DNA from: Mytilus edulis
Lineage: Eukaryota
Length of the DNA stretch: 64,000 nt
Assembly: GCF_963676685.1 (NCBI RefSeq)
Contig: NC_092355.1
Location: 67,518,001 to 67,582,000 of the forward strand
Direction of reading: 5' to 3'
Shown piece by piece: positions 403 to 43,958 of this stretch. The notes beneath the pieces were generated by a model. That model did not search any database. It saw nothing but the letters and a program-made list of their open reading frames with translations, and had not been told where the DNA came from. The translations under genes were made by a program, and so were the position numbers. Each line of letters begins with the position of its first letter. The first letter of the stretch is position 1.

Positions 403-551
403 CATCTTCCACTCTATGTGCATATTTGGTCTGATAACCACGACAAAAGTTTGCAATCTTTGAACCGGCATAGGCAAGCAAGTTTTCATTCGACATGCTG
501 GTTTTGGTAAGTCGATAAACATGTGTTGGTAGATGAGGGGCAAATATTTCA
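403..551 (-). CDS. BRICHOS precursor gene A, coding exon 4 (SEIFAPHLPTHVYRLTKTSMSNENLLAYAGSKIANFCRGYQTKYAHRVED); the next exon lies left of the window
   Basis: ttttag acceptor, gtgagt donor, 149 nt, phase 2 in / phase 1 out; same length and phases as the paralogous exon 33558-33706; I-x-x-F-C-x-G-Y resembles the BRICHOS C-terminal Cys motif. Confidence 0.88.
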
Positions 552-2451
552 CTAAAACAGAAATGCAATAATTGTTTTGTAAAACATGCATATATAGACC
601 CAATCAAGATTAAAGAGTAATACGGTGCATGTACTCCATTAAAGGACGTCTTAATCTGTAACTGATTTGTTCAGTTTACAACTTGAATTTCGTTTCAATT
701 TTTTCTGTCATTTTAAAACTTGTTCAAACTTTTACTAATTATTGTTAATAAGGTCGCAATTTGAAACATATGTGAAGTTACTTTAAATTTTTAAAAGTAA
801 GCAGTGCTTAGCATTTTCTAGCCTGGATCAGATAAGCATTTTTGGGCAAATTTGTATGGCTTTTGTATCTTTTGCTTCTGTGATGACTTTTTTTATAGAC
901 GATTCGTGGGTGTTTATTAAATGTTTTTTTCCATAATTTTTTTTTCTTATTTATACATGTTATATACAACGATAATTCAATAAAGCTGTTGAACCAATTG
1001 TTCCTTTCCAATGGTGGGGTAAAAGTCGCCCATAAGTACGATCTGATTGTCGTAGTCACTATGTCGACCTCATTCTATTTATTGACACATCACCCAATGT
1101 TTCCTACAATTGAGTTCTTTCTTACCACGTGTAACAAATTGAATAGAAACTGCTCATTCGCGTGTAAATGATGAGGTTTTTTTTTTTAATTTCAATTGCT
1201 TTGTAAAATATTCGTTGTTTTTTTCCCTGTTTTACCATTGTTTCGTCAGTTTCTTTATTGTTTTTCATTAAGGATGTACACCTAGATGAGCCGAAATCTT
1301 TTTGAGTAAACATTTTTTAGTGATCCAGATTCAAGGGTTGATATATATATGACTAAGAAAGTAATTGATTAAGACAAAATCAGACATCTATTGTTTTGCT
1401 ACGGTCATTAAACGTTTTTAATAATTTTCCCATTTTTCATCAATTGTTAACCATTTTTTGGCGACAATCATGAAAACAATCACATTACTTGTTAACAAAC
1501 TTCATACTCAAAGACTGATTATTGTAAGTGCACATTTTTTACACTCCGTTTAGTACGTATAAAAATATTTTGTTCTAAATTCATCGATACTTTCCACTTG
1601 TGTCACATGTTAATGAAATTATTCCCGAACGAGATATTACAAGAACGAACCATCAGAAGAATAGATCCTTTCGGAGTTGCTGCTTCCTCCTTAATTTGTT
1701 TGTTCATCCTCTTTACAAACTGCGTATAATGATATTCATAAACGTATAAGGTGATCTAATAGCTTTTCTCGTTTTCTGAAAGTATTTTTCGAGCTATCTA
1801 TGCTATTGAATTTCAACAATCGATTGAGTAACTTTTTTTTCTAATTACATTCTATTACTTTTACGTATACATTACTATCAAATTGAGCTCAGTGCCTAGC
1901 TAGAGTTACCAATTTTATCTCTCATGTTATCTCGCTTGAACTTTTATTTTGTCATGTTGGAGAATTTAGAAGCTGACGATACGGTTTTGTTTTTGAAGCG
2001 GACGATACGGTTTTGATTTTGAGCACTTAAGGGACGTTGGTTTTAAATTCCACACCAGTTAGACTCTAGTTTAGAGTAGATCTATTTGCACCAATACCAA
2101 ATCTCCTATTTGTGTATGGTGACATGCAGTTTTTACAATAATCGAAAATAGCACAGTATAAAAAAAAACTATAATAAAGAACTTTATAAATAAAAGGCTG
2201 TCATTGTTTTAAGTTTATATGTGCCGTCTACATTACATAGACAACCCTTTTTCTTCCTTGTTTTCTACATGCTATTGCTGCAATCAGTTTAATAAATAGG
2301 TGCATAAATGGGTAATCTCGCTGTCTTTAAGACATTTTGCATATCAAATTCATACGGTTATTCTGATTCTATCCAAAACAAACCTTTTTGTTGTGTCTTA
2401 ATTTTTCGGCGTGTTTGTATTGTACATTAAGTACTAATAAATTTACATTAC

Positions 2452-2552
2452 CTTGTCATGTTATGCAGTCGAGTACTTAGTTCTGCAAGATCTTCGTCCA
2501 TATGAATAACATAACAAATTCCAGCATCTATCCGTTTAAAGGCTAGTTTTTG
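2452..2552 (-). CDS. BRICHOS precursor gene A, coding exon 3 (QKLAFKRIDAGICYVIHMDEDLAELSTRLHNMT)
   Basis: ttcag/gtaatg splice sites, 101 nt, phase 0/2; LAFK...GICYV resembles the first BRICHOS Cys motif; paralog at 34266-34366. Confidence 0.88.
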
Positions 2553-2843
2553 CTGAATTGAAGAAGAACATATATGGAGATATACACCATTCATACTATT
2601 CGTCACAATTTAAAAACAAATCTTACGACGTTGTTAAACGAGTTCGTAAGTTAAGAAACAACCAATACATGATCAGTGTAGTGTTATTGGCCATGCAATT
2701 GAACCTAGACGTAATAGTTCAACATTTATTTAGTACTTTACCCCTCTCTTTTGGTGTTATCAATTAGATAGTGGCATAAGACAAAATAACAAAATACAAT
2801 CCGATAACTGTTTAGTAGTAAAGTAAATTGTAAGTGAACATAC

Positions 2844-2996
2844 CATATTAAAGTCATGAAGATTAACGGTACTTGAGAATGTTGGTCCAAGATGGCTGAC
2901 TCCACCAACAGTGACCACAAATGTGTTTTTCTCAAGATCGAGAACGAAATCTACGTTAACTGGTTTCCCGTCAACTTTCACAACTGCTCTAAAGTT
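2844..2996 (-). CDS. BRICHOS precursor gene A, coding exon 2 (NFRAVVKVDGKPVNVDFVLDLEKNTFVVTVGGVSHLGPTFSSTVNLHDFNM)
   Basis: tttacag/gtatgt splice sites, 153 nt, phase 0/0; ends in HDF, the conserved BRICHOS Asp motif; paralogs at 35933-36085 and 9748-9904. Confidence 0.88.
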
Positions 2997-4254: not shown

Positions 4255-4305
4255 CTCTGGAAAACATGACACACAGGCAATCAACACTAGGAACAAAATC
4301 ATCAT
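4255..4305 (-). CDS. BRICHOS precursor gene A, coding exon 1: signal peptide (MMILFLVLIACVSCFPE)
   Basis: Hydrophobic signal-like peptide, gtaagt donor in phase 0, gacag acceptor just upstream of the ATG; paralog at 39931-39978. Confidence 0.85.
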
Positions 4306-5140
4306 TATCTGTCAAGGAGTTAAAAGATATACACTATCCATTATGCAAATCATTTTGAAATTACAATTTATAATTCGAAATTTTATAATTCCAACAAAAA
4401 ATCGACAATAAATTCAGATCAACCTTTTATTTCAAGATCGTCTTTGAATGTTTTATGAGTTTCAAATTTTGTACCATTGCAATTGAATGAAAATATCCAA
4501 CCTTGAATATGGATATAAAGTATGTTCGTCCATGTGCTTCAGAGTTAAAGGTTTCAAAATTGTATTCAGCTTATGAATCAATCACAATAGATTTGATTCT
4601 TCGTTGTAAACAGCAGATGGCAGTCAAATTCAAAATAAGGACACCACTTGATATAACACAGATGACATCGGGTATATTGTTTGACGTCGTCCTTATACGC
4701 CCATCCATGACGATGCCTTGTTACAAGACATCAGCAGAGAAAACATCACCTTTCCCATAAAATTAGATTGAATTCACTCTATCAAATATTTAACGCAACC
4801 ATTTCTATAAAAATATTCTTTGAGTATTATCCCTTTTACTTTCGGTTTCGCTTGATATTTTATTCACCTTCAAGTTAATGATTATTAAAACCACAAGAAT
4901 CCATAGAACAGACACAACCTTTCCTTTTTAAAGTAAAAACACTTCTAAACAAATCTTCTATTCCCAACTTTTACGCAAAGAACTTGATAAAGATAAATGA
5001 GGAACAAATCCAGGTAACAAAAAACTCAAATCACAGCAACTCAAAATGAACTATAACGTGTAAACGTTGAAAAACCTTCAAATGCTTTAAATCATAAACA
5101 AAAAACGCTGTTCTAAAAACTCCAAGAAGCATTACCTTAC

Positions 5141-5191
5141 CCTTTGAATTATCTGCTAGCTCTTAGATAGACATATATTCATTGTTTTATA
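5141..5191 (-). promoter_or_regulatory. Putative TATA box (TATAAAA, 5185-5191) and short 5' non-coding exon of gene A (donor after 5141)
   Basis: TATAAAA about 45 nt upstream of an agg|gtaag donor; same layout at 43902-43958 upstream of gene B; coding exon 1 has an acceptor, so an upstream exon is expected. Confidence 0.5.
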
Positions 5192-5889
5192 TGAATTTCT
5201 TATCAACTGTAGACCTCTTTAGTTAGGAAAATATTGTTATTTTCAATGCATTGGCCTTGTATTCGGTCGTAAACTTTGTAATCATTTGCGCAGTAGGGAA
5301 TTTTTATTATAAACTGCAGCTGTGCATTTTACGCAGTCAAATTGCATTTATTTATCGTTTATTTCGCTTGTTCTGTAATTAAATAACCTTGAGCAATAAT
5401 GAACTATTTGTAGGAAAGGTATTTTAGTGAGGAGACATACACATTTAACAGATCTCTAATTCATTCGATTTTCACCTTTAATAGATAAATTTGAGAGTGT
5501 TCATACTATTCAAGTCATTTTCCGGTTTGCTGGTGAAACAAATAAAGGACTTCAAAAAGACGCAAATACGCCTCGATAAATCACTAATCAGGTTCTCTGC
5601 ATATTAATATTGTGAAATATCAGCGTCTCGGCACAATACAAAGACTACGCTCACTCGACAAGAACTTCATATTGATACTCGCAGCTGATATTTGACCGTA
5701 TCAATAAGCAGACAACTTGATAATCGGTTCATATTTCATACTATATGAAGTGTATCTCTAATCATTGCTTGTTCAGATGGTGTACATAATCAGGTCAGAT
5801 CTATTTCCGACGGTTCACAACTACTAAGTAAACTATATATGAAAATTGTAATTACTACTTTTTTATATAGCGTTAACACTTTGTGTTGA

Positions 5890-8800
5890 ATAAATCGGAC
5901 TTTTTTCATTTTTGTACATGCATCTCAAAACGTGGTAAATCGGTAGTTGACTTTATATTCACAACTCACGAACATTTAAACTCTTGCATAGACTTCAATG
6001 AGAAAACCATGTCTGATATAACTCATTTCTTCGATCTTCAAGAGTGCAGCCAAATACAAGATTATTCAGTGCTACAGACAGTAATACAAAGGGAAGCATC
6101 TGTACCTCATAATAACGTGTAAAAATTCCCGACAAATTTAAAACGAATTCCAAATAATCCAAAATCTTACCAAATTCCTAACGATTTTTTAAATGATGAC
6201 AATGCTCGAGAAAAAACTGAACAAATTATCAACAAAATAGAAAATGCACTTGCAGATAGACGAGACGTTGACGAAGCATATAGTAATTTATTTCAATTGA
6301 TTAACGTTGAAGTTATCTCAAAAATAGGACACAAGACTGCACATGATGACCAGCATAAAATAACTACAAAATGCAGTAGAAAGTCAAAATATAAACCATA
6401 CTGGAACGAAAATCTTCAAGAATATTGGAAGAACGCATGTGAACAAGAGAAAAATTTGCTTAAGGATAAGATATGTGATCCGAAGCAAAAACGTCTAAGA
6501 GAACATTTCGTAACAGCTAGAAATGATTTTGATAAACTTCTGCGAAAGGAAAAACGTAATTATTAATCATGTTAATTGCGTCAACAAAAAGAACTTTTTG
6601 ACCTATCGAAAGAAAGTAATACGAGGGATTTTTGGCGACAAATAGGAAAACTAGAAATAATAATAGATAGACATGACGAAACACCAATGGAAGTTCGTCT
6701 ACCAAATGGCAACATCATCAAGGATATCAATATTGTTTATAAAACCTTGAAAAATGAATATGAACATTTGTTTAACATTAGCATGATTAGCGACGGGGAA
6801 TACGATGAGGGATTTCGAACATTTATTCAACAAGTAGATCATGACCTAGTGAGCAATATTTAGAATAACTCGGACACATTAAACTCTAGAATTTCATATG
6901 ACATGTATGAGGCCGTAGAAAAATCTGTGTAATGTGCAAAATTGAACAGGTCCACCGGGTTAGACCAGATATGCGCAGAATTTCTCCGCAACAATTCATG
7001 TGCAGATATCATATTCAAGATCGTTAAATTTGCATTCGATAACGGAGTTGTACCAGAAACTTGGAACCAAATTTTGATCAATCCGATTCTAAAACCAGAT
7101 AAAGACAACCGTGATCCTCTGGGATATAGAGGAATAGCTCTTACGTCAATTCCTTGTAAAATATATGCTGACATTCTAAATGTACGATTGTCATCTTGGT
7201 TAGAAGACAACGACATTCTTGCTGACAAGAAAACGGTTTCAGGAAGGATCGTGTCTGTATGGAACATCTGTACGCTTTAACAACTTATAATCACTTATAG
7301 GAAAATTGAACGTAAGTCGACATTTGCGTGCCTCATCGACGCAAAAAAAGCCTTTGACACCGTGAGCAGAGAAATGTTGTGGTATAAATTGATGGCACTT
7401 GGTATAAATGGAAAGTTCCTGAAAGGGTAACAGTCTTTGTACGTAGATGTTCGTTACGCAGTAAAAATCAATGGGTACATGACAGATATGTTTAACGTTA
7501 TTTAGGATATGAATCAAGGATGTAAATTATCCCCGACGTTGTTCTCAGTTTATGTAAACGATCTCGCAGATGAAATCAACTCAAATTTTGGTATACCAAT
7601 AAATGCAGTTAGTGTGATTTCGATATTATTATACGCAGATGACATTGTTATATTGGCGCCCGACGAAGAATCACTTCAGCAAATGTTAAATATTGTTCAT
7701 AAATGGTGTTCGAAATGGAGAGTATGTATAACTTTTGACAAAACTAGTGTAGTGCATTTCAGATGTGGATCTTCACCTTTATCTAACTTTGGTTTTACCT
7801 GTGGAAATACCATTGTAAAATACGACAGCAAATATAGACATATTGGTATGTGGATAGATGAACACCTAGACTGGAGGTTTACCGTTAGAGACGTAAGAAA
7901 ATCGGCCAGTCGAGCTTTGTCGGCACTTTATGCCAAATTTATAGCCTGTGGTGGAATGGACTTTGATATATGCGAAAAATAATATAAAAACCTTGTTCAA
8001 CCTGTATTGTTTTATGAATCAAGTATCTGGGGTATATCAGAACATAAGCAACTAGAAACTGAGCAAAATAGGGCATGTCGATACGTTTTAAGGGCCTTTA
8101 AAAACTCTACCAATCTAGCCGTTCGTGGAGATATGGGATGGACAACAGTTAAAAAGAAAACAGAACATTGAAGTTATGAGATTATTTTTCAAACTTTCTA
8201 ATTTAGAGGATGATAGAATAGCTCGGACTATACATGAAACTAGTAGGACAAAACAACGATCATGGCATTCACGTGTATTAGCTTTATGGAGAAAATCTGA
8301 ATTGAAATTTTTAATCAATCTCAACATTACAACCAAACAAAAGCTACGAACGGCTCAAGACAAATTAACAGTTATATCTCAAGAGAAATGGTTAATTGAT
8401 GTTTTTGACGATAAAAATTATGTAACTGAAACAAGCTTAGAACATTCAGAAGGTTTTAAAATAAACAATTGCAAAACTAGTGTATTTGTTTAAACATTCA
8501 ACTTTCGTGACCATCGACACATTTCATCAATTTTTTTATGTGGATCGCTGCCGCTTGTGGTTGAGAACGGATGTTACACCAAGCCGACCACTCTATTATG
8601 TGATAGACTTTTTCTTTTCTGCAATGACATTTTAATTGAGACAGAACAACATTTGTTGATAGACTGTAATTTTTATGCAGATATAAGAGAAGAACTTTTT
8701 AATTATATTTATGTTCTGAATAACACTTTTAATGCTATGAACTCAGATGAAAAATTGGATTTTATTTTGAACTGTGATCATGCTCAAGTTTTATTAGTCA

Positions 8801-9085
8801 AGTCCTTGCATCTTATGTATAAACGCAGGAAGATTAATTTGTAAATTTTTAAACAATATTGATTGTATAAATGAACTTAAAGGAGATTTTAGAATTTTAG
8901 TATCAGGAAAAGTTTTATTATTTAGATATTTCTTTTACATTATAGTATATATTTTTTTAGTTTGAAAAGGATCAAAGTGTCTCATATGTCTTAAAAGCAA
9001 GGATTTATATGGTTTTAAAGATTTTTATATTGTATATGATGATGTATATCGGATTGTGACACTATAATAAACTATTTACTTACTC
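5890..9085 (+). mobile_element. 5'-truncated, degenerate non-LTR retrotransposon (L2/Crack/CR1-like ORF2: endonuclease C-terminus, RT, C-terminal Cys/His motif)
   Basis: Fragmented ORFs with RGKSVVDF, STGLDQI, YRGIAL, KKAFDTV, QGCKLSPTLF, LLYADD, ETEQHLLIDC; AATAAA plus a (TTAC)-type tail at about 9066-9085; many stops and frameshifts. Confidence 0.9.
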
Positions 9086-9747: not shown

Positions 9748-10463
9748 CATATTGGATTCATGCAGATTCATAGTGCTTTTCCATTTTGGTCCAAGGTGGC
9801 TCACATCACCAACATTGACCAACATTGACCAATAACGTGTTCTTCTCAAGATTGAGAACTATATCTTCGTGCACTGGTTTCTCATCAACTTTCACTATTA
9901 CTCTTTTAAAAAATCCCATTCTGTTAGATCCTTTAATTTTTGAACCAATTATAATTATTACAACATTTATGTTCAGAATAAAACTTTGACTTTGATATAC
10001 AACGTGTACAGAACATATGTAAATCATAAATGAGGAGACCTCTTTACCTTATCGTCAGATGAAAATAATCAGTCTTAATTTCGGTCCTGTATCTTCTAAG
10101 ACAGTCAATGAAAAGATAAAGTTTGATTCATTTGTATATGACGATGTGTATAATGGTAACACGATTATGTAGGCTCTTTCGTGAACCTCCCTTTTTTATG
10201 TAAAGAGGCAAACTGCTGGCACTGAATTTTTTAGCGGGAGGAGTTTTGGAACAGGCAGCATGAACGGTTTTCGTATCTAGGTCAAATATGTCAATTTCGG
10301 AATGTTCCAATATTTCGGAATAGCGTGAGTAGTTTGCCCTCTCCATCTTTTAAAACTAATGTGAACATCAATAGGACTACAGCATTTTCTTTAACTAACT
10401 TTGGCAAACTACCCTAATATTCAATTGGAATATAAAGATATTTAACTTAACTTACCTCTGGAG
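9748..10463 (-). pseudogene. BRICHOS precursor pseudogene: exon-2 copy (9748-9904) and a remnant of the exon-1 3' end (10456-10463)
   Basis: RVIVKVDEKPVHEDIVLNLEKNTLLVNV...GDVSHLGPKWKSTMNLHESNM|gtatg with a 10-bp tandem duplication (ggtcaatgtt) that shifts frame, a lost acceptor and HDF changed to HES; ctccagag|gtaagt matches the exon-1 end of genes A and B. Confidence 0.8.
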
Positions 10464-11533: not shown

Positions 11534-11835
11534 ATGAGGCTACAAACTGTGTTTTTTTCATATTAACTTACTCATTACAATATACAGCGGAACGACAATT
11601 ATATCAGCACATCATAAACCAGAGGCTGATGGCAAATTTGGAAATCAGAACAATGATGAAACAAAGTTTTCTATATCAATAGCTGAATGTAATATGAGAT
11701 GTTCATTAAATCCTCGTTGTGTATCTTTTTTCTATAATTCGTTGACAAAACTGTGTATTTTACATTCAAATCCTTTTACTTATACTGTTATACCCAATTC
11801 AGGAACTGGATGGAAACTTTATGTAACTCGAGATC
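11534..11835 (+). CDS. PAN/apple + C-type lectin gene, exon 1 (signal peptide and PAN/apple domain); +1 frameshift in a T7 run at about 11552-11558
   Basis: With one T removed: MRLQTVFFHINLLITIYSGTTIISAHHKPEADGKFGNQNNDETKFSISIAECNMRCSLNPRCVSFFYNSLTKLCILHSNPFTYTVIPNSGTGWKLYVTRD; C-x3-C-x5-C-x-S-F-x-Y...C-x-L is the PAN/apple pattern; gtaagt donor, phase 1. Confidence 0.8.
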
Positions 11836-12044
11836 GTAAGTTAATATTAAACAAATATTTGAAAATACGTATAAGTATGAAAAGACTCGTCGAATAAAAT
11901 GCAATTAGTTGAAAGAATATAATTCGAATCACTTAACAAAAACAAAGAAGAAATATTATAATATTCGTTATGAGTATAACTGATTCAAATAACATCGGAC
12001 TTTTATTTTCGCTGTTGTAAAATAGTGTGATTATAATTTTTCAG

Positions 12045-12203
12045 GAACTAGTCGTTGTCCAGATAATTTCTTTTTCTATAGACAACTTGACTTTTGTTGC
12101 CAGTTCAGGCCAACAATCAAGGCTGCTTACATTTCTTGTCCGCTTGGTAAATTGCAAAGAATTGATACGGAGGAAAAACAGAACTATACAATGAAAATCA
12201 CAG
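12045..12203 (+). CDS. PAN + C-type lectin gene, exon 2 (TSRCPDNFFFYRQLDFCCQFRPTIKAAYISCPLGKLQRIDTEEKQNYTMKIT)
   Basis: tttcag/gtatga splice sites, 159 nt, phase 1/1; CP-x-x-F...C and C...GKL-x-x-I-D-x-x-E pattern of the CTLD N-terminal half. Confidence 0.85.
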
Positions 12204-12416
12204 GTATGAAAAGTTAAATCACTGGATGGAAAACTTGCACAGTGAGGGTCAGCGATATGATTATCTAGGGTAAGATAGCGTAATATCTGAACCAATTATA
12301 ATGTAAAAATATGTGAACTCAGACTTGGATTTATACATTTTCTGTTGAATGATAATTTTGTCCTTAGTGATTTTTAACTTTGTACCTAATTTATATATTT
12401 AGCTATTTGTATTCGA

Positions 12417-12460
12417 GTGTCACTGGTGAGTCTTTTGTAGACGGAACGCGAATCTGGCTT
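12417..12460 (+). ncRNA. Degenerate hammerhead motif (core mutated)
   Basis: CUGGUGA / GGAA in place of CUGAUGA / GAAA; same flanks as the 9210 copy. Confidence 0.6.
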
Positions 12461-13940
12461 ACAAAATTTCAAAACTGGTTTCAACGAATGTTCTTATCAA
12501 AAGTGGGTAATATTTGATTTCTTATTTTACTATTTCCGAGATTGTTCCTAAGTAAAACGTATAAGTATATTTATAATATTGTCGAAAGTACATGAAGTTG
12601 ATCATTTTAATTACTTAAGTATGATATCACCATGACATTGTGAAAAGGTACTTTTTGAATGAGTTGCATACAAATCAAATCTGATGACTTCAAATTATAT
12701 TATACGAAATTGTTATCTGATTTTAAGGGAAGTTTAAGCGATGCCGTTTTTTTTTTGTCCTTGTATGTGACCATGTTAATGTTTTAAACACGATTAACGA
12801 TAGCGTTTTTTTTATAGAGTTTTTTATTCTATAACTTCAAACAATTTTATAATTATAATTTTAATTTAAAATTTAGTTTCAAAATACTAAAGTGAAAAAC
12901 CAAATGAAGTTTTTTCGAATCAATATTATCTGTTTTAATTTCCCTAATAGCTAAGGAGTTATGAAATACTATTCACAAAAAAAAACTCAAAAATCTTTTT
13001 TGTTAGCTAAATAGCATCGAAGATTTATTCCGGTTTACAAATAGATATTGTCCATTACTTTATTAGATTGTAAGAAAAATGAATTGAAAGTATAACATAA
13101 AAAAAATGTCTTAACATATACATCAATGGTATGCTTTGAAATTAATTGTGCTTGGTGATTATTTCAAAAGAAAGAAACAAAATAAAAGTATGATATCTTC
13201 TTATATCTCTATGCTATACATCTATAGGATAAACTTGGTTTAGGCCCTTCGATAAAAGCTTTTAGCTTAGCTGTAAAAAAAAATTACAATGTTTTGTGTA
13301 CACGTTCTGATGTTAACAATTCTATAACCTCATCCCGTATCTAAACGTTATCTGCAAAAAACGACTTGTGTTTTCAAAATTTTGCTCTTGATGCTCTTGT
13401 GACAATACAAAAGCTTCTTCCTACATTTTTTACAATTTCATTTGCATAAATTTGATTTGACAAAATTATTGCGATTCAACAAACCTAATCCCAGAATCAG
13501 TCTGTATAAAGGATGGCTATGTCTCAATTCCGTGACAACATGTAGCGTATTCGACAAAAAGTAAGAAAGATCACTCATAACAGGTTTCATGGAGTTTCAT
13601 TATAGCATGTGAGATAATGGTCCAATAAGCATTACATCTAAATATAAATCAGATTTTTTTAAAGGCACTACATGAAAAAAATATGGCAAAAATTTCAAAA
13701 CAGGAAGAGCCACCTTCCTTAAATATAAATCAGAATGCCAGAAGACAGAAGGGTCTAAATACGGTTTACAGAAAGCAGAATAAGGTATAAAAATGCTTAC
13801 TAAAAGGCAGACAACTACTTATGAAAGGCAATAAAAAGTTATTGAATATGTGAATCTATTTCGTTTGTTGTCCTTGTAATATGTCAGAAACGTCACGAGT
13901 TCAACATATCACTTTAAAATTTATCAATGTACTTTTTCAG

Positions 13941-14161
13941 CTGATATTGAACTCTTATATAACGCTGCAATTTGCATACAAGGCAATAATACAGGAAGTG
14001 GTTGGAAATTCCTGGATGGAACACTTATGACGTATTCCAACTGGGGCTTGAACCAACCATATAAAAATTCAAATCAACTGCGCATGATCAGATGGAAGAA
14101 CTACGTTTGGGTCACTACTAGTGAAACTGTGATTTGCAGTTACCTATGTGAATATCCCTGA
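13941..14161 (+). CDS. PAN + C-type lectin gene, terminal exon 3a (ADIELLYNAAICIQGNNTGSGWKFLDGTLMTYSNWGLNQPYKNSNQLRMIRWKNYVWVTTSETVICSYLCEYP*)
   Basis: tttttcag acceptor, phase 1; W-x-F-x-DG, Y-x-NW-x3-QP and YLCE are CTLD motifs. Confidence 0.85.
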
Positions 14162-14797
14162 TTTATGGCAACAGTACAGATTTACATACATGTTCACGAC
14201 TATATGCTCTAAGTTGTGCCGTTAACTGTGTAAATATCAATTACTTTAAGTGTTAGTTCTAGAGAGACAATTGTAAATACATAAAGACTAGATTTTCATT
14301 TTATAATGTTGTGTATTTATGTTCTAATATTGTATTGCTATAACAATTCGTTATACGTAAAATTCAACCAAATCATGGTACGTCACATCCAGTTCTTTAC
14401 AAAAAATGGTCGAATAAACATATGATCTTAAATTCAAAAGTTGCAGTATATTCATCATACTTTTAATTGAAGTAAAAAATAAATCTGGGTCAATAACATA
14501 TATTTTGGGTGTTTAATTTAGTGTTTCTATAAAATATTTTGGAAACTTGCAGTCACATTGTCACCAAAGCTTGGCACAGATAGAAAAGAGATCAAAAATT
14601 GATTGGTTAACTTTCAGTAATGGTTATTTTCTTATATGGAATTAAAAAAAGACGGACGGAAGATACCAAAGGGACAGTCAAACTCATAAATCTAAAAAAA
14701 AACTGACAACGCCATGGCTAAAAATGAAAAAGACAAACAGAAAAACAATAGTAAACATGACACAACATAGAAAACTAAAGAATAAACAACACGAACC

Positions 14798-15666
14798 AAT
14801 GTTATGTGAAACTTTGTCTATAAAACTGGAAATGATACAAATTAACTCATGCCAAGTATTTTTTTTTTTTATTTGAAACAAAGATAATTTCTGCGCAATT
14901 TTTTGAGAAGTGCAAATTTAACAACGGCTAGTAGGGGGAAATCAATGGTGGTATTACACCTTAAGGCAATGAGCAGATTTTTGTATTAGACGAATCCTTG
15001 TAAATATATTGAACGGTTTATGTTTTTACTGTGGCTTGTACATGTTGTAATAGAGCTGTGGTGTAGTGGTTAGTGCATCGGACTACTTACGCAAAGGTTC
15101 CTGGTTCGATTCTCGTTTGGGATGAAAATTTCAGGAACTCAATGTTCGGCTCTACCTTGACACCATCTGCTAGTATGGTCTTGGGGAAACGATGATAGTC
15201 CGTCGGAAGGGGGCGATAATTGACTGACCCGTGTTAAGAGAGAGCCATATCTCTTGCACGTTAAAGACACCCTTGTAGATTTCGAAAACGAGTAGGTTAA
15301 TGCCGCTACAAGGCAGCACTCGCACCTGCAAAGTGGAAAGGGATTAATATAAGTTGCAAAACTTGTTTCCCAATCCACTGTTTAAACTAAACATGTTGTA
15401 AGGCCACATGTCACCCAGGTAAAATTGTGAGGCCTTTCTTGGTTAAACAAACCAGAATTCGTATGCACATCTTTTAATTGCAAAGTGGACCAGCGTTCAT
15501 TGCCTTTTAAAAAGGTTTCATACGACCATTGATTTCCCCCTACTAGTTGTTTTTGTACATCTCAAATCATTGCGCAGAAACTATCTTTGTTTCAAATTAA
15601 AAAAATACTTGGCATGAGTTAATTTGTATCATTGTCAGTTTTATGGACAAAGTTTCACATAACATT
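14798..15666. mobile_element. MITE/foldback element with imperfect terminal inverted repeats of about 150 bp, hosting a SINE
   Basis: aatgttatgtgaaactttgtc...tagtagggggaaatcaatggt is mirrored by accattgatttccccctacta...gacaaagtttcacataacatt. Confidence 0.8.
15051..15390 (+). mobile_element. tRNA-derived SINE (Deu/Nin-domain type) with an 11-bp target-site duplication
   Basis: A box TGGTGTAGTGG, B box GGTTCGATTC, central gtccgtcggaagg...gcacgttaaagacaccc domain; ACATGTTGTAA at 15040-15050 and 15391-15401. Confidence 0.85.
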
Positions 15667-15769
15667 TAATTCCATAACCATGTTTGAAGATAAAGTTGTC
15701 TCAACACCAGATGTTCAAAATATTTTAATAAGATAATACTAACGTTACATGTTGTTCAGAATGAAATCA

Positions 15770-16640
15770 GCCCTTCTAAGGAAGAAAGAAACGAAGTTCG
15801 CAATATCGTTCTACTTTACTTTTCGCTATATAGATGATGTTCTCTCACTAAATATTTAAACGAATCTATCCCATCGACCTTGAGATAAAAGATAAAATCA
15901 CAAAAATACTGCTCCGAGGAAAATTCAAAACAGAAACCCCCTAATTAAATTGCAAAATCAAAAGCTCTAACAAATCAAACGATTGGAAAACAACTGTCAT
16001 ATTCCTGACTTGGTACAGACATTTTCTTGTTTAGAAAATGGTGGATTGAACCTAGTTTTATAGCTAGCTAAACCTCCCACTTGCATGGCAGTTTCATCAA
16101 ATTCCATTATATTGACAACGGACATAAGTATAGGGGAACAGCAGTCAACACTGTTATAATCTTAATCACTGTAAGGTAAAGGATACAACATATACAGGTA
16201 AATCTGTCTCATATCTTGACTTACATCTCGAAATTGACATTGAAGTTCGTTTGAAAACATATTTTTACAACAAAAGTGTAATTTGAGCTTCCCAATTGTG
16301 AAATTTTCGTTTCTATGTAGCAACATTCTAGCAGCGCCTGCATAAGGATTACATATCTACTAATTGATACTATATTCCGGGGCTTGTATTTCCTATTATG
16401 ATTCTGCGATAGAGGGTTGCTGCTCACAATGAAGCTATCAAATCAAGAGTTCAAAATGGTGACGTTGATATCATCTTTTTATACATTTTAACGGACACCA
16501 TCGCCTGTTGGTTGACTGTTATGGTATATCCGTTTCACAGATGACTGCAAATATATTCCTAATGTCGTAACTTAATGGGATGTCTCCTTTTCGCGAATGA
16601 ACCTACCGAATTAGACTTTTTACCCAGTTTGTACGAAAAT
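15770..16640 (+). mobile_element. Degenerate Penelope-like RT 3' fragment (interrupted); partly duplicated at about 23155-23620
   Basis: FTFRYIDDVLSL, SYLDLHLEID and FPIV..F..SNI.AAPA-like peptides with frameshifts. Confidence 0.7.
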
Positions 16641-18287
16641 GATCAATATGGTCGTTCGGTAAATCTAAATTAAAATGTATTTACTGTTACTCATTTGAAG
16701 CCTTCTTCTCTATTTAGAAAAGTAATTGTGTTAGATAAGCTTACTGGAGACGTGATGAAACAATTGAAGCTTTTATTTTTCTCTTTGATTACATCAATGT
16801 ACGTTTCGGCAACAAAGTTTTAAGATATGTTGTTGGTAACTATTTCCATAGTTTGTTCCTGTGTTTTGTATTTTTTGTATATTCCTGTACTATTTAAAGT
16901 TAGAATTTATAATTTTTCCTTTATTGTGGTTTGTTGCTGCTTTTCTTATTTTCGTTTTTTTTTGTTACATATTTTCTACATAAGTTTTCTGGCTAGAAAT
17001 ATTTCACATTTGTCATTTCTCATAAATACCCCAAAAAAATAGATGTGGTATATACTCAAAATACTAAAGTGAGAAACCAAATGAAGTTTTTTCGAATCAA
17101 TATAATCTGTTTTAATTTCCCTAATAACTAAGGAGTTATGAAATACTATAAACAAACAAAACTCAAAAATATTTTTTGTTAGCTAAAGAGCATCGAAGAT
17201 TTATTCCGGTTTACAAATAAATATTGTCCATTACTTTATTAGATTGTAAGAAAAATGAATTGAAAGTATAACATAAAAAAATGTCTAACGTATACATCAA
17301 TAGTATGCTTTGAAAGCAAAATAAGTAACACGCAAATTGAAAAAAATAATAATAATGGCGTGTGAGGAAGTTGGTAATTGAATTTCTGTTAAAGTATGAA
17401 ATGAATTGTGCTTGGTGATTATGTCAAAAGAAAGAAAAAAAAGAAAAGTATGATATCTTCTTATATCTATATACTATACATTTAAAGGATAAACTTGGGT
17501 CGTTGAGAAACTTCACACAGCGTTTATTCTTATCACATATAGATATCAATATACACTGGCCACCAAGATTAGGCCCTTCGATAAAAGCTTTTAGCTTAGC
17601 TGTAAAAAAAAATTACAATGTTTTGTGTACACGTTCTGATGTTAACAATTCTATAACCTCATCCCGTATCTAAACGTTATCTGCTAAAAACGACTTGTGT
17701 TTTCAAAATTTTGCTCTTGATGCTCTTGTGACAATACAAAAGCTTCTTCCTACATTTTTAACAATTTCATTTGCATAAATTTCATTTGACAAAATTATTG
17801 CGATTCAACAAACCTAATCCCAGAATCAGTTTGAATAAAGGATGGCTATGTCTCAATTCCGTGAAAACATGTAGTGTATTCGACAAAAAGTAAGAAACAT
17901 CACTCATAACAGGTGTCATGGAGTTTCATTATAGCATGTGATATAATTTGCAGATAATGGTCCAATAAGCATTACATCTAAATATAAATCAGATTTTTTT
18001 TAATGGCACTACATGTAAACAATATGGCAAAAATTTCAAAACAGGAAGAGCCACCTTCCTTAAATATAAATCAGAATGCCAGAAGACAGAAGGGTCTAAA
18101 TACGGTTTACAGCAGCAAAATAAGGTATAAAAAATGCTTACTAAAAGGCAGACAACTACTTATGAAAGGTAATATAAAGTTATTGAATATGTGAATCTAT
18201 TTCGTTTGTTGTCCTCGTAATATGTCAGAAACGTCACGAGTTCAACATATCACTTTAAAATTTATCAAATTGAATGTACTTTTTCAG

Positions 18288-18508
18288 CTGATATTGAACT
18301 CGTATATAACGCTGCAATTTGCATACAAGGCAAGAATACAGGAAGTGGTTGGAAATTCCTGGATGGAACACTTATGACGTATTCCAACTGGGGCTTGAAC
18401 CAACCATATAAAAATTCAAATCAACTGCGCATGATCAGATGGAAGAACTACGTTTGGACCACTACTAGTGATACTGTGAATTGCAGTTACCTATGTGAAT
18501 ATCCCTGA
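18288..18508 (+). CDS. Duplicated terminal exon 3b of the lectin gene (possible alternative last exon)
   Basis: 221-nt copy of 13941-14161 with intact acceptor, frame and stop; 6 nt differences. Confidence 0.6.

Positions 18509-20251: not shown

Positions 20252-20252
<1 letters not shown>

Positions 20253-20321
<69 letters not shown>
20253..20321. repeat. (TA)n microsatellite
   Basis: Seen directly. Confidence 0.95.
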
Positions 20322-33557: not shown

Positions 33558-33706
33558 CATTTTCAAGTCTGTGTGCGTATACGGATTTATAACCACGACA
33601 AAAATTTGCAATCTTTGGACCAGCATAGGCAAGCAAGTTTTCATTGGTCATGTTTGTTTTGCTTAGTCTGTATACATGCTTTGTTAACTTCGTTGCAAAT
33701 ATTTGG
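33558..33706 (-). CDS. BRICHOS precursor gene B, coding exon 4 (SQIFATKLTKHVYRLSKTNMTNENLLAYAGPKIANFCRGYKSVYAHRLEN)
   Basis: ttttag/gtgagt, 149 nt, phase 2/1; paralog of 403-551. Confidence 0.9.
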
Positions 33707-34265
33707 CTAAAATACAAATTTATGTAACATAGCTCATGTTTAGATATTTCTTTCATATTTGTAAATACGTGTATTAACATTGAGAGAGCTCTTGAAAACT
33801 AACATATAAACAGGAAAACTATGCAAATTTTATCACAAAACATGATTAACCCGCCTCATTTTTTCGCCTGTCCCTAGTCAGGAGCCTCTTACCTTTTTTA
33901 GTTGTTTTTCTTAATTTAAGTTTATTAATATATTTTTGGTATAGCGTCCAATTCCAATGACCTACTATACAATTTGTTTAGGGGCTATCTGAAGCCTCAT
34001 TGAATTTATCGCTCTTTTGAAGACCCATTGGTAGATATAGCTTTCGGTTTTTTTCGGTTTTTTTGTCAGGTTGTTGTCTCATTGATACATTCACCATTTC
34101 CATTCTCAATTTCATGTCCATTTGTCTTTATGTAAATATGAGTTTTGTGTCTTTCATTAAACACTTGCAGTTTTGGCAAACGAGTTGCGTTTACTAGGCT
34201 TCTTGAGCAAACTATTATAAACCTCTGCCATATTCCTTTTGTTAAAAGATTATTATTTATATTAC

Positions 34266-34366
34266 CTTGTCATATTATAAAGTCGGGCACTTATTTCAGC
34301 AAGATTCTCTGTCATTAGAGTAACATAGCAAATTCCTTCGTCTACTTTCTTTAAGGCTAGTCTGTT
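34266..34366 (-). CDS. BRICHOS precursor gene B, coding exon 3 (NRLALKKVDEGICYVTLMTENLAEISARLYNMT)
   Basis: ttcag/gtaat, 101 nt, phase 0/2; paralog of 2452-2552. Confidence 0.9.
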
Positions 34367-35932: not shown

Positions 35933-36085
35933 CATATTGAAATCATGAAGATTTATGGTCCTTGACCAGTTTGGTCCAAGATGGTTCACCTCACCGATAT
36001 TGACAAGAAATGTTTTCCTTTCAATGTCAAGAACTAAATCTTCATTCACTGGTTTACCGTCCACTTTAATAATAACTCTAAAGTT
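35933..36085 (-). CDS. BRICHOS precursor gene B, coding exon 2 (NFRVIIKVDGKPVNEDLVLDIERKTFLVNIGEVNHLGPNWSRTINLHDFNM)
   Basis: tttcaag/gtatgt, 153 nt, phase 0/0; paralog of 2844-2996. Confidence 0.9.
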
Positions 36086-39141: not shown

Positions 39142-39862
39142 AGCTGGGGTCACACATTCACGATTTTTACTGCCGTCCTTGACAGGACCATTCCCGATTA
39201 AAATTTATCAAAAGTCTGATCAAGATCCTATGAATCGTGGATGTAAATTCAAACTTTAAAAATTTAATCACGACAACAATCAGATATTGTTCAGGAAGCG
39301 CCGATATTCAACCGTTTCCAAGCGAATTTATCCCGATAATCCCGTTCTAAATCCGCTTCTAATCCGATTTTTATCTTTCGCCAGGTAAAATTCGACCGAG
39401 TCTGTCACGACTGCGTCCCGATTCTACCGAATGTAATCCGACAGAGATCAGATAGTGACAAGACAGTGAACCGACGCTGACGGAAGTTATCCGTTCGAAC
39501 AAATTTCTCCAGATCATTCCCGTTCCACAGGACACCGTCCCGAATACACAGAACATTGTTAGGAATTCGATCCGATACAGCAGAATCTGTCACGACATAG
39601 GCACGATTGTAATACGACTAGACAAAATCGGCTGAGTTTCCCCGAATGTTACGGGACGCACCTAACTGTCGGGGTGCTTTGCCGAACTATTCGGACCCTT
39701 CCCGACCAGTAGGAATCTGTTACGAACTTAAACGACTGCGTTCAGACAATAATAGGACATTCCAGATAATTGAGGATACTAATCCGACTTTTTAACTTTT
39801 CGTGTCGTATCGCTGTCTGATCTCAAACGGGAGTAATAATCGGCAATGTGTGAACCCCGCAT
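39142..39862. mobile_element. Harbinger/PIF-like MITE
   Basis: agctggggtcacacatt ... aatgtgtgaaccccgcat termini; related copies at 41219-42818. Confidence 0.7.
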
Positions 39863-39930
39863 TAGCCGTTTGAATTAGTTTAATAACATTCCGACTGTTT
39901 AAATCCCAATATATCTGTTAGAACATTTAC

Positions 39931-39978
39931 CTCTGGAGAACAGGACACACTTGCAATCATCAAAATGAATAAAATCAT
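39931..39978 (-). CDS. BRICHOS precursor gene B, coding exon 1: signal peptide (MILFILMIASVSCSPE)
   Basis: Paralog of 4255-4305; gtaaat donor in phase 0; tttcacag acceptor 6 nt upstream of the ATG. Confidence 0.87.
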
Positions 39979-41218
39979 TTTAATCTGTGAAATATAATAA
40001 AATAAAATATTTATAATGTGCTTAATTCAAATTCATTTCCAATTTTTAAATTCATGACAAGACAGGGAAAAACATCACCTTCATTCAATTATATTGAACT
40101 TTCCGCTTATGATAATTAAAGAATAGAGCATTGAACGATTAAATCAAAAACAGAATTATTATTTCGTATTGAAGGACAGTCGACTAACAGTAGATTTAAC
40201 ATTGGAAACAAGGGTAATTATAATTTCTGTTTATATTTCTGTTTGTAATTTTTTCTATATAAACTATTCCACTGTATTTTCTAACCCTACACAAATAATG
40301 AGGTGTGGTTTGAGGTCCAGTAAGACCCCTTTCCACCCATGTCCAAATGTTTTGAAAACAAAATATCAACAATTGTAGCCCAATGCCCTGCATTAACTCC
40401 ACCAGTAGTGGGATCGTCCAGTTAAAAAAGGGCCCAAATGACTAGACTAACTAAAGTGTAAAACAACTCAAACAGGGAAATCGGTCTAATCTATACAACA
40501 AATGAAAACAGAAAACACCTATAAACCACGTCAACAGACATCAACAACTAAGCAGCATGCTCCTGACTGAGAACAGGTGCATAAAAGTGTACAGGGCTTA
40601 AACGTTGTAACAGGTACCAACCTTTACACTAACCCGAGACATTAGTGTTAGATGACAACAAAAAAAGACACACTATAAAATGAAATTGACCAAAAAGACA
40701 TTTGAACAAAACAAGTAAACATACACTTAAAGAATAAGTTTGATATTTGACATAATATAAACGCATATTGAAAAATAGATTTCTATATAACATATAAGTT
40801 ATAGGTAGTTATAAAATAAAATGTAAAAAGATTGTCAGACAGACAACTCTAACATGAGACATAAATGGCGTGAAATAAAACAACATTCACAGGTAAATCG
40901 AAGCGTAATAATTTTGTTGTTAGGAGTACGGAATAAACATTTTTTTACAAAATTAATAAATTTGTTGTTAAGAGTACGACTAAAAGTGAGTTGTCGTCAT
41001 ACTAAATCAAAGGTGATACATATTACAAATGTCGAGACGAGATATAACACAAAATATGCATATACATATTGAATTACAGAAATGTATTACAAATTGCGTA
41101 AATAGGTCAATCTAACACGAAAGTACTATTTAGTAGTACTTACAGTTACGGAAAGCTAAAACCAATTAATAATAAGAAATCTTACACCAGAGGCTAACAT
41201 CAATAAAACCGCTTCTAA

Positions 41219-42818
41219 AGCTGAGGTCACATATTCACGATTTTTTCTGCCGTCATTCCCAATAATAATTTGTTAAAAGTCTGATCAAGATCTTGTAAAT
41301 CGGGGCTGAAAATTTAAACTTTTACTAAAATTTGTAATGCAGGGTTCACACATTACCGATCATTGCTCCTGTTTGAGATCAGACGGCGATACGACACGAA
41401 AAGTGAAAAAGTCGGATTACTATCCTCAATTTTTCTGGAATGTCCTATCATTGTCTGAACGCAGTCGTTTAAGTTCGTAACAGATTCCTACGGGTCGGGA
41501 AGGGTCCGAATAGTTCGGCGAAGCATCCCGACAGGTGCGTCCCGTAACATTCGGGGAAACTCAGCCGATTTTGTCTAGTCGGATTACAATCATGCCTATG
41601 GCGTGACAGATTCTGCTGTATCGGATTAAATTCCTAACAATGTTCTGTGTATTCTAGACGTTGTCCTGGGGAACGGGCCTGATCTGGAGACATTTTTCAT
41701 TGCTGTTTTTCTACCGATTGAGTCCGGATTGCATCCAGATCTTGTCGATTGTGAACCGTTTTTGCCGAAACCGTTCCAAAACGGTCCCGTTATTAATTCG
41801 AAATTCGTCAATGATAATCACGTCAGAGTCTCGAAAATTACAGAATACAATACGACTGAGACCAGACAACCGTTTGCAATTCGATAGAGCGGACGGTGAT
41901 AGGATTACGTTCCGACATTACCTGATCATCCCGAGTATGCCGACAGTTTTCGAACGGATAACTTCCGTCAGCGTCGGTTCACTGTCTATTTACTGTCTGA
42001 TCTCTGTCGGATTACATTCGGTAGAATCGGAACGCAGTCGTGACAGACTTGGTCGAATTTTACCAGGCGAAAGATAAAAATCGGATTAGAAGCGGATTGA
42101 GAACGTGATTATCGGGGTAAATTCGCTTGGAAACGGCTGAATATCGACACTTCCTGAACAATATCTGATTGTTGTCGTGATTAAAAAATTTTTTTTACAA
42201 ATTTAAATACAAGTTTGAATTTTCATCCACGATTCACAGGATCTTGAAAAGACTTTTGACAAATTTGAATCGGGAATGGTCCTGTGAAGGACGGCAGTAA
42301 AAATCGTCAATGTGTGACCCCAGCTTTAAAACATTTATTTAATCACGACAACAATCAGCAGAATCTGTTACGACATAGGCACGATTGTAATCCGACTAGA
42401 CTAAATCGGCTGAGTTTCCCCGAATGTTATGGGACGCACCTGTCAGGATGGTTTGCCAAACTATTCGGACCCTTCCCGACTCGTAAGAATCTGTTACGAA
42501 CTTAAACGACTGCGTTCAGACAATGAAAGGACATTCCAGATAATTGAGGATAGTAACCCGACTTTTTCACTTTTCGTGTCGTATCGCTGTCTGATCTCAA
42601 ACGGGAGCAATAATCGGCAATGTGTGAACCTCGAGGTGCTTGGCCGACCTCTCCGATCCGTAGGAATCTGTTATGAACGTATACTACAGCGTTCAGACAA
42701 TAATAGGACATTCCAGAATATTAAGGATAAATGTAGTAATCCGACTTTTTAGATTTTCGTGTCTTAGAGGGTATTATCTCAAACAGGAGCAATAATAGGC
42801 ACTGTGTAAACGCCGCAT
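41219..42818. mobile_element. Nested Harbinger-like MITEs: a longer copy (41337-42325, inverted) inserted into another copy of the same family
   Basis: The outer copy starts agctgaggtcacatatt, is interrupted by atgcagggttcacacatt...aatgtgtgaccccagct, and resumes at tttaatcacgacaacaatcag. Confidence 0.75.
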
Positions 42819-43901
42819 TTGGGATTTAGTGTTTTAACGGCATGGACAATCAAAGACAACATACATTGTGCATATATGTCCGTGGCTATAATTTGCATAA
42901 TTCATTATACGATCTGTAACTCTTTTTTATAATACATGTTTGGTTACAACGCTATTCAATTATTTGTTCGACCTCCACTGATAAGTTTAATGAGTCTGTC
43001 TTACAAAATTATAAAATATGTATTCCATGTTATATTGGTATATTTCATTTGTTTTGACAAACACTTAGTCGTGGCCACTGCTAGTCGGCGTATAGTCTCT
43101 GAGTGTATTATCATCCCCAAATGTATATCATTCAAAACTGAATTAATTGACAATCACTGGATTACAGGCTTCTGACTTTGGACAGGCAAATACATAATGT
43201 GGCGAGGTTGAAATATTTGCTGACGCCTAACCCTCCTCTTTTCCTGGGACAATGATGTAATAAAGGCCCTGTAACTTTGACGGGTTTTTTTTTCTTCCTT
43301 TTAATCAAAGATCAAAACTATGAAACGTTTACGAGTCAACGGGCGTTAATTTCTAAATTGGTCCATAGTCAATTTTAATCGAAGTATTTGCATGCTTTGA
43401 TTTTGTACAATTGCATAAAATTATGAACTGCATGGAAATCTACAATCAAAATGTGTCATTCAAAAAATAAAAATACCAAAGCCTTGGATACTGGTGGATT
43501 GTTCAACAGCAGCACTACCGATCCAGTGGTGATAAAAATAAAATTGTATGATGTATGATCAATGCACAACACACGTTTCTTGCACACTCTTGGACGGGCA
43601 TTCGGAAACCAGGAATGTCATATGGAAGAGCCTGTCAACTTAAAGGTATAAACAGAACAGCCAACACCGTCAATTTCAACTTTGTTTTGTGGTAGTGCAA
43701 AGAGAAAATATAATATAATATATCAGCAAACTGTCTTGAAATTAGATTAACTAAATGTCATACATACAGTTAGCTTTGAATGTTCAAATGTTGAGACAAA
43801 TATATACTTATATGCATAAGTTGATCAATGGAAAACATTGACAAGTAATTATAAACCGAAAATCCAATAATGTAAATTTGAATTTTAAAAACAAATCTTA
43901 C

Positions 43902-43958
43902 CCTATAGAACTGACAGTTTGCTAACAAACAAAAAAAAGGACACACTGCGATTTTATA
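43902..43958 (-). promoter_or_regulatory. Putative TATA box (43952-43958) and short 5' non-coding exon of gene B
   Basis: TATAAAA 50 nt upstream of agg|gtaag; parallels 5141-5191. Confidence 0.45.

What the first reader, a model, noticed from the sequence alone, without database searches (positions are those of the whole stretch)
403..43958. Tandem birth-and-death cluster of BRICHOS genes (A, pseudogene, B)
Seen: three same-strand paralogs. A and B share exon 2-4 lengths and phases exactly (153/101/149 nt; 0-0-2-1) and conserve both Cys, HDFNM and an N-M-T glycosylation sequon, while their introns show no obvious similarity. Inference: an old duplication under purifying selection plus a dead copy. 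This is the pattern of an expanding immune or secreted-effector family, and more members may lie outside the window.
Basis: partly seen in the sequence, partly recalled or inferred. Interest (0 to 1): 0.7.

Follow-up and report, generated by a model that had tools for sequence, protein, structure and literature searches.

The report
Mussel BRICHOS hairpin-peptide precursor pair
Two old, conserved blue-mussel genes, with one broken exon between them, encode predicted secreted proteins whose chaperone (BRICHOS) domain likely carries and then releases a short cysteine-bearing peptide, probably for surface mucus rather than as a classic antibiotic; they belong to a family of at least 12 mussel genes that our paper searches did not find described, and one gene's peptide exon is read in mussel transcripts yet absent from this assembly.

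Summary
The observation mostly holds. Minus-strand genes A and B share exons of 153/101/149 nt, phases 0-0-2-1, both Cys, HDFNM and NMT; their introns are unrelated; dN/dS is 0.12-0.25. The 'pseudogene' is one frameshifted exon-2 fragment of a third lineage, and an opposite-strand PAN-domain gene separates it from B. The genome is Mytilus edulis. A ends outside the window in an exon encoding RR plus a 21-residue, near-neutral peptide with two Cys, predicted as a beta-hairpin and conserved in three Mytilus species. B is spliced in 3 of 4 runs laid. In one contig it continues into a peptide exon that is not found in this assembly, so the RefSeq model is truncated. No further complete copy lies in 324 kb, so this locus is not expanding now. 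At least 10 more family loci lie on three other chromosomes, six of them in one cluster. The layout matches polychaete BRICHOS antimicrobial precursors, but only 3 of 19 tails checked are cationic, and none of them belongs to A or B. Immune function is untested. Verdict: a real family that we did not find described, with an overstated interpretation.

The parts
403..551 (-). Gene A exon 4 (149 nt; second BRICHOS Cys; ends in phase 1). Its last exon 5 lies outside the window (G000:C12:67516813-67516731; L009:8813-8731): RR site, 21-aa peptide with Cys-Gly-Cys, stop; AATAAA 27 nt later
   Evidence: exon 5; the five joined exons equal P0005 = XP_071143655.1 letter for letter
2452..2552 (-). Gene A exon 3 (101 nt; first BRICHOS Cys; NMT sequon)
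2844..2996 (-). Gene A exon 2 (153 nt; HDFNM with the conserved BRICHOS Asp)
4255..4308 (-). Gene A first coding exon (ATG at 4305; signal-peptide-like hydrophobic stretch, judged by eye)
5141..5200 (-). Gene A GATAAG / TATAAAA and putative 5' UTR exon with an AGG|GTAAG donor (inferred from likeness to B)
6000..8850 (+). Degraded LINE between A and the fragment (approximate ends)
   Evidence: RVT_1, E 3.5e-18
9748..9904 (-). Orphan exon-2 fragment ('pseudogene'): 10-nt duplication frameshift, HESNM; closest to a third lineage (40 of 49 aa to P0003, 32 to A, 31 to B)
10447..10462 (-). 16-nt match to the exon-1 end and donor; possible remnant of the same lost gene
   Evidence: (E 0.004)
11588..18508 (+). 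Intervening PAN-domain gene with internally duplicated 3' part (not BRICHOS)
33558..33706 (-). Gene B exon 4; RefSeq XP_071143656.1 reads through its donor to a stop at 33550; transcript contigs continue into an exon not found in the assembly
34266..34366 (-). Gene B exon 3; junction with exon 4 seen in 3 of 4 runs
35933..36085 (-). Gene B exon 2; its 3' end is the loose end joined to exon 3 in X1
39931..39984 (-). Gene B first coding exon (ATG at 39978)
43902..43971 (-). Gene B GATAAG / TATAAAA and putative 5' UTR exon

Best explanation
A and B are two old, conserved mussel genes for predicted secreted precursors in which a BRICHOS chaperone domain likely holds a short C-terminal beta-hairpin peptide that is probably cut off at an Arg-Arg site and likely acts in surface mucus or matrix. 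Shown: the exon structure, open frames, purifying selection, BRICHOS membership of A, splicing of B, and a peptide exon in a B transcript that is missing from this assembly. Predicted: the fold, with residues 163-177 as a hairpin after a low-confidence linker holding R156-R157. Inferred from the BRICHOS family: entry into the secretory path, a Cys81-Cys138 disulfide, a glycan at Asn99, binding of the hairpin in the BRICHOS groove so that it does not aggregate, and cleavage by a PC1/PC2-type convertase. Inferred, weakest: the released peptide is neutral, hydrophobic and thiol-bearing, so it more likely self-associates or disulfide-links into epithelial secretions (barrier or microbe-handling role) than lyses membranes by charge. 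History: three lineages arose at this locus. A is stable across three species, the third survives here as one exon, and B keeps its chaperone part while its peptide exon diverges and seems to be lost from this haplotype.
For: Pfam BRICHOS: A 25.4 bits, over the cut-off of 25; 18 of 18 aligned relatives match. ESM Atlas: gastrokine clusters at 0.93; TM 0.71 to a gastrokine-2 model over residues 1-178. The profile aligns HDF and the first Cys with Bri2 BRICHOS (8rnu, E 0.24, weak). AlphaFold: pLDDT 83, pTM 0.79, strands 163-168 and 173-177, linker block pLDDT 62. Dibasic site plus a Cys-bearing tail in 19 of 21 relatives tabulated. dN/dS 0.12-0.25. A orthologues share 126-134 of 135 pro-region and 25-26 of 27 last-exon residues. 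B junction 33706/34266 (GT-AG) in X1, X3, X13; the contig continues 111 nt in X1 and 143 nt in X13. The X1 continuation has Arg-Arg at A's register. Tail charge -1 to 0 for A-type and trossulus B. Unassigned leads only: a 'Gastrokine-2' transcript tops the mantle-versus-gill list in M. chilensis (PMC8174845, passage), and a BRICHOS transcript is listed as up in the digestive gland (PMC4203926, section 9).
Against: No cleavage, peptide, tissue or activity was observed. The A and B sites are RR without the P4 Arg of the furin motif that C5 and C10 members have. B alone scores 21.8 bits, below the Pfam cut-off. PDB fold searches gave no clear match: best Foldseek E 0.016 to ependymin-related proteins; Bri2 BRICHOS Z 4.6, below LolA/LolB at 5-6. 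A's expression was not tested here. The raw-read run X21 (6% read) had no reads in the bin holding B exon 4. Only 30 nt of B's missing exon were visible. The two literature transcripts cannot be tied to A or B.
Confidence: 0.5

Rival explanations
1. A and B are mussel counterparts of polychaete BRICHOS antimicrobial peptides: the released hairpin kills microbes, and the cluster is an immune family.
For: Same layout: signal, BRICHOS, dibasic site, Cys hairpin (PMC4002450 passages; PMC10745061 section 5). The last intron is in phase 1 in both. C10 relatives have cationic tails (+2, +4, +5). B's peptide start differs from the trossulus B model beyond RR-x-F, while their pro-regions share 116 of 135 residues, which would fit diversifying selection.
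Against: A's tail is -1 to 0 and conserved; 16 of 19 parsed bivalve tails are neutral or anionic. The mussel genes have a phase-2 intron that alvinellacin lacks (phases 0,0,0,0,1). No annelid-named protein was among the hits whose names were looked up.
Confidence: 0.22
2. The proteins are secreted whole, like gastrokines. The tail stays docked as part of the fold or links by disulfide to a partner, and the BRICHOS domain itself acts as an extracellular anti-aggregation chaperone in mucus.
For: The nearest Atlas clusters are gastrokines. The RR site lacks the full furin motif. A spliced-looking relative (P0003) and the RefSeq B model end right after the BRICHOS domain, and an AATAAA lies 57 nt after that stop, so tail-less forms may be made. 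The odd Cys count in 14 of 21 tails suits intermolecular links.
Against: A dibasic site sits in the predicted exposed linker and is kept in A, B, trossulus B and most bivalve relatives. Many relatives have the full R-x-K-R motif. No read-through contig was among the pieces shown (4253 pieces not shown).
Confidence: 0.22
3. Sub-question: B's peptide exon is missing through an assembly error, not a real deletion in the sequenced haplotype.
For: The region downstream of B holds 95-97% identical local duplications (13-24 kb), where assemblies can collapse.
Against: No N in 324 kb. No 13-mer of the exon start in that span, also when allowing a split into micro-exons, and no match genome-wide at 2 mismatches. 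Hemizygous presence/absence is widespread in Mytilus (PMC7653742, abstract).
Confidence: 0.3

Closest known systems
Polychaete BRICHOS-AMP precursors (arenicin, alvinellacin, capitellacin, nicomicin, HfBRI)
   Same: Signal peptide, BRICHOS pro-region, dibasic site, short C-terminal Cys hairpin; peptide in the last exon after a phase-1 intron; multigene family with tandem copies (PMC4002450, PMC5431198, PMC10745061)
   Different: Host is a bivalve, whereas a 2022 review says they are found only in polychaetes (PMC9756803). A and B-type tails are not cationic and have Cys-x-Cys at the turn, not cross-strand pairs. Intron phases are 0-0-2-1, not 0-0-0-0-1. No activity is known.
Gastrokines GKN1-3 (secreted BRICHOS proteins)
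   Same: About 180 aa, secreted; nearest Atlas clusters by features (0.93) and TM 0.71 over the whole length
   Different: The mussel proteins have a dibasic site before the tail. Orthology was not tested. That gastrokines are not cut there is recalled, not checked.
Bri2/ITM2B and OAF
   Same: BRICHOS Cys pair, conserved Asp, convertase site, C-terminal hairpin (five features listed in PMC9714404)
   Different: Bri2 is membrane-anchored. OAF's mature part is 70 aa with four disulfides. Sequence match to Bri2 BRICHOS is weak (E 0.24).

Membership tests
BRICHOS superfamily (PF04089) | Profile match over the curated cut-off | tested here: met
   A 25.4 bits against 25. B 21.8 bits, E 2e-4, is under the cut-off but 67% identical to A.
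BRICHOS superfamily (PF04089) | Two conserved Cys (strand 4 and helix 2) and a conserved Asp | tested here: met
   C81, C138 and D65 invariant in 18 of 18 rows; HDF and the first Cys align with Bri2
BRICHOS superfamily (PF04089) | BRICHOS fold | tested here: inconclusive
   Atlas TM 0.71 to gastrokine-2 and 0.68 to ITM2 models; solved BRICHOS chains only Z 4.1-4.6, not ranked first
BRICHOS superfamily (PF04089) | N-terminal signal peptide or anchor | tested here: inconclusive
   Short hydrophobic N-terminus in its own exon; no signal-peptide predictor was run
BRICHOS superfamily (PF04089) | Chaperone activity on its own peptide | not testable with these tools
   needs a bench assay
BRICHOS-AMP precursors | Dibasic convertase site before the C-terminal peptide | tested here: met
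   RR in A, in the B transcript and in trossulus B; no P4 Arg
BRICHOS-AMP precursors | C-terminal beta-hairpin with Cys | tested here: met
   predicted strands 163-168 and 173-177, two Cys at the turn; prediction only
BRICHOS-AMP precursors | Peptide enriched in positive charge | tested here: not met
   A-type -1, 0, 0; trossulus B -1. Met only by C10-type relatives. Edulis B's full peptide was not seen.
BRICHOS-AMP precursors | Alvinellacin/capitellacin intron pattern (five coding introns, phases 0,0,0,0,1) | tested here: not met
   A has four coding introns, phases 0,0,2,1; C5 genes show 0,0,0,1
BRICHOS-AMP precursors | Antimicrobial activity of the mature peptide | not testable with these tools
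   needs synthesis and assay
Gastrokines | Orthology with vertebrate GKN1-3 | not tested
   no vertebrate-named rows in the tree
Actively expanding birth-and-death cluster (this locus) | Several recent complete copies plus whole-gene pseudogenes | tested here: not met
   two complete genes with dS near 1 and fragments only in 324 kb

The most novel reading that the evidence does not exclude
Bivalves have their own family of BRICHOS-chaperoned peptide precursors that our searches did not find described, with a constant chaperone cassette and an exchangeable peptide exon. The family includes cationic C10 hairpins that would be the first BRICHOS antimicrobial peptides outside annelids. At gene B the peptide exon itself segregates as present or absent, so some mussels would secrete a free chaperone and others a chaperone plus peptide from the same gene.
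Probability: 0.25. Interest if true: 0.75.

Novelty: new variant of a known kind. Interest (0 to 1): 0.5.

Why it matters
Reviews place BRICHOS-linked defence peptides only in annelids. A family of at least 12 loci in mussel, with relatives in clams and an oyster, gives a ready panel of short synthesisable peptides (cationic, neutral and anionic) to test whether BRICHOS cargo is always antimicrobial. It also offers new natural BRICHOS-client pairs for the anti-aggregation chaperone question. If B's peptide exon is truly present in some animals and absent in others, it extends mussel presence/absence variation from whole genes to a single functional exon. In any case the RefSeq model of B is incomplete.

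Tried and rejected
Single exons gave no BRICHOS hit in Pfam; whole proteins were needed. The PF04089 search of the genome found 3 sub-threshold matches, none at these loci, so it is no census. P0013 (a trossulus paralogue) was not found in the genome with this query. A weak C8 hit was not confirmed by the family profile. B exon 5 was sought by likeness to A exon 5, by the trossulus tail, by the transcript's 30-nt start in the window, the genome and 324 kb and as split micro-exons; none found it. A candidate open exon at 28569 was rejected because no contig shown joins it. A splice after 'QQ' in A exon 5 was rejected: RefSeq in three species reads through, and the relic copy lacks the GT. No RNA holder was listed on record for B; the runs are guessed RNA, and the spliced junction is the evidence. 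The first 57 or so residues of P0002 match many long-frame repeat loci and were dropped from the tree. PDB sequence and fold searches gave only weak rows; LolA/ependymin likeness is treated as a common sheet arrangement. No complex prediction was run. Paper searches found no description of this bivalve family; subscription journals are not covered. Two supplements of PMC7653742 held as text had no BRICHOS mention; other supplements were not seen.
Full report
Source. The window is G000:C12:67518001-67582000 of a 1.37-Gb genome. Proteins encoded by the window are held under NCBI names as Mytilus edulis 'uncharacterized protein', on a contig of the same length as C12.

1. Observation. Genes A and B are as described: minus strand, exons of 153/101/149 nt, phases 0-0-2-1, AG/GT ends, both Cys, HDFNM and NMT. 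Each has a signal-peptide-like first coding exon and, upstream, GATAAG, TATAAAA and a short UTR exon with the same donor. Introns 2 and 3 align no better than 20 shuffles each; intron 1 scores 35 against a shuffled maximum of 33. The middle copy is not a whole pseudogene. It is exon 2 alone (9904-9748) with a 10-nt duplication and HESNM, and exon profiles find no other exon for it. It is closer to a third lineage, the unnamed protein P0003 (40 of 49 residues), than to A (32) or B (31). A LINE lies between A and the fragment, and a PAN-domain gene on the other strand lies between the fragment and B.

2. Selection. Over exons 2-4, A and B are 76% identical in DNA and 67% in protein, with dN 0.17-0.19, dS 0.70-1.41 and dN/dS 0.12-0.25 by NG86, LWL85, YN00 and ML. 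The codon bootstrap (500 samples) gives 0.11-0.33. The duplication is old and both genes have been under purifying selection. In a tree of 29 pro-regions, A orthologues (100/99), B with trossulus P0002 (96/99) and P0003 form one clade (100/99). The C1 gene was left out because its exon 4 start was not modelled.

3. A ends 1.2 kb outside the window in an 83-nt exon. The five exons give exactly XP_071143655.1 (178 aa), and the 90% cluster holds M. galloprovincialis and M. trossulus proteins. After R156-R157 comes ALLQQVSDNVVCGCDVIKMII, net charge -1. Orthologues keep 25-26 of 27 last-exon residues and 126-134 of 135 pro-region residues, so A's peptide shows no faster change. For B, RefSeq reads through the exon-4 donor and stops (152 aa). 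Laying four runs on 24100-34410 showed the GT-AG junction of exons 3 and 4 in 3 of 4: X1 (depth 511), X3 (11) and X13 (50), from three studies. The raw-read run X21 had none. The X1 contig differs from B by one letter and continues 111 nt past exon 4; the X13 contig continues 143 nt, and its letters were not shown. The visible 30 nt of X1 encode Arg-Arg at A's register followed by Asp-Phe-Met-Met. This sequence has no match in the window, none genome-wide at 2 mismatches, none at 9 mismatches in 324 kb without gaps, and shares no 13-mer with that span. So B is a peptide-bearing gene in other animals and lacks that exon in this assembly. A deletion in this haplotype is the likelier cause, given how common hemizygous DNA is in Mytilus (PMC7653742, abstract); an assembly error is not excluded. 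The trossulus B model has 116 of 135 pro-region residues in common with B but a different tail, alike only around RR-x-F in the few residues that can be compared. That tail was not found in this genome either.

4. What the protein is. Pfam BRICHOS: A passes the cut-off (25.4 bits), B does not (21.8), and 18 of 18 aligned relatives match. The Atlas gives gastrokine clusters at 0.93 and, by structure, an unnamed mollusc cluster (TM 0.76) and gastrokine-2 (0.71). AlphaFold with 18 rows gives pLDDT 83 and places a hairpin at 163-177 behind a low-confidence linker containing RR. PDB searches were not decisive. Of the five BRICHOS features listed in PMC9714404 (parts 1-2 of 3 read), the hydrophobic N-terminus, basic site, hairpin, Cys pair and Asp are all present in sequence or model.

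5. Family. In 324 kb around the window only A and B are complete. The rest are fragments: exons 4+5 inverted at C12:67476044-67476829, part of exon 4 at 67498236, exon 5 at 67443105, and two exon-2 traces at 67501268 and 67464457. They lie among five copies of the PAN exon, so they are probably by-products of segmental duplication. Elsewhere there are three loci on C10, one on C1 and six within about 112 kb on C5: at least 12 loci, a lower bound. C10 genes share A and B's exon lengths 153/101 and phases. On C5 one copy has a stop in exon 2, one lacks the first Cys, and one is followed by two similar last exons. The remote search found 23 proteins at E up to 0.001. Named ones are from Mytilus, Mercenaria, Ruditapes, Mya and Ostrea; three long hits (600-1676 aa) were not used, and the one read (P0022) is an unrelated repeat protein. 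Most tails carry C-x3-C-x2-C or a shorter form. Of 21 tabulated, 19 had a parsed dibasic site, and 3 of those 19 have net charge +2 or more, all of the C10 type.

6. Mechanism. Shown: structure, selection, BRICHOS membership, splicing of B. Predicted: hairpin tail and exposed RR linker. Inferred from the family: secretion, chaperoning of the hairpin, convertase release. Weakest: the role of the peptide. A neutral, hydrophobic, conserved peptide with two thiols at the turn fits a mucus or matrix component better than a membrane-lytic cationic peptide (0.5 overall). Rivals are an antimicrobial peptide (0.22) and an uncut gastrokine-like protein (0.22). Two papers mention unassigned mussel BRICHOS or gastrokine-like transcripts, in mantle (PMC8174845, one passage) and digestive gland (PMC4203926, section 9); neither can be tied to A or B.

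7. Known and new. BRICHOS antimicrobial precursors are described as polychaete-only (PMC9756803, passages) and are listed only under annelids in PMC11767717 and PMC13001179 (passages). PMC10745061 (section 5 and passages) describes their tails as enriched in positive charge, with two exceptions. Alvinellacin's gene has five introns in phases 0,0,0,0,1 (PMC4002450, passages) and is multigenic (PMC5431198, passages). A and B work like these precursors in layout but fail the charge and intron tests, so they are not filed there. Eight paper searches found no description of the bivalve family; the library lacks most subscription journals. An earlier unchecked note of this scan describes an oyster BRICHOS-like protein with a proline-rich tail; it was not tested here.

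8. Verdict. A real and well-supported gene pair in a family we did not find described. The 'expanding immune cluster' reading is overstated for this locus. The added value lies in the peptide exons, the B exon missing from the reference, and the cationic C10 and tandem C5 relatives. Interest 0.5; new variant of a known kind.

Noticed in passing
G000:C5:11462400-11579000 (L029-L041): Six BRICHOS genes in about 112 kb with R-x-K-R or similar sites and Trp-Cys-x4-Cys tails. One has a stop in exon 2, one lacks the first Cys, one is followed by two similar last exons, and no last exon was found for the stop-bearing copy. This is the better birth-and-death case.
   Followed up: partly
G000:C10:9368400-9388200 and 27700700-27705000 (L017-L019, L021): Three paralogues whose linker and tail are built from several small exons; tails are cationic with three Cys, the best antimicrobial candidates. 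RefSeq isoforms of one gene end in different exons.
   Followed up: partly
window 11588-18508 (+); copies near C12:67513500, 67490400, 67453800, 67419900: PAN-domain gene with a C-type-lectin-like last exon (lectin label by eye; no Pfam hit), in five copies at 89-92% over the PAN exon; the window copy has its 3' part duplicated at 96%.
   Followed up: partly
P0003 (unnamed contig of 933 nt): An intact third-lineage protein that ends just after the BRICHOS domain, reading as if through the exon-4 donor; nearest relative of the window's orphan exon.
   Followed up: partly
P0002 (M. trossulus model): Its first residues match many long-frame repeat loci instead of a signal peptide, probably a model error from an element in intron 1.
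   Followed up: no
window 50164-55769: Two inverted LINE (RVT_1) copies, 99% identical over about 1.1 kb.
   Followed up: no
window 39137-42819: Nested GC-richer foldback-like repeats in B's introns, 89-93% alike, with another copy about 215 kb downstream of them, near C12:67343000.
   Followed up: no
window 35584-35844, 18577-18886, 22093-22621, 19897-21538: An 11-nt AT-rich tandem array in B intron 2, 25-26-nt satellites, and a degenerate repeat of about 370-450 nt.
   Followed up: no
model of A, residues 12-148: Fold searches rank LolA/LolB and ependymin-related proteins (Z 5-6) above solved BRICHOS chains; within the range of common arrangements.
   Followed up: no
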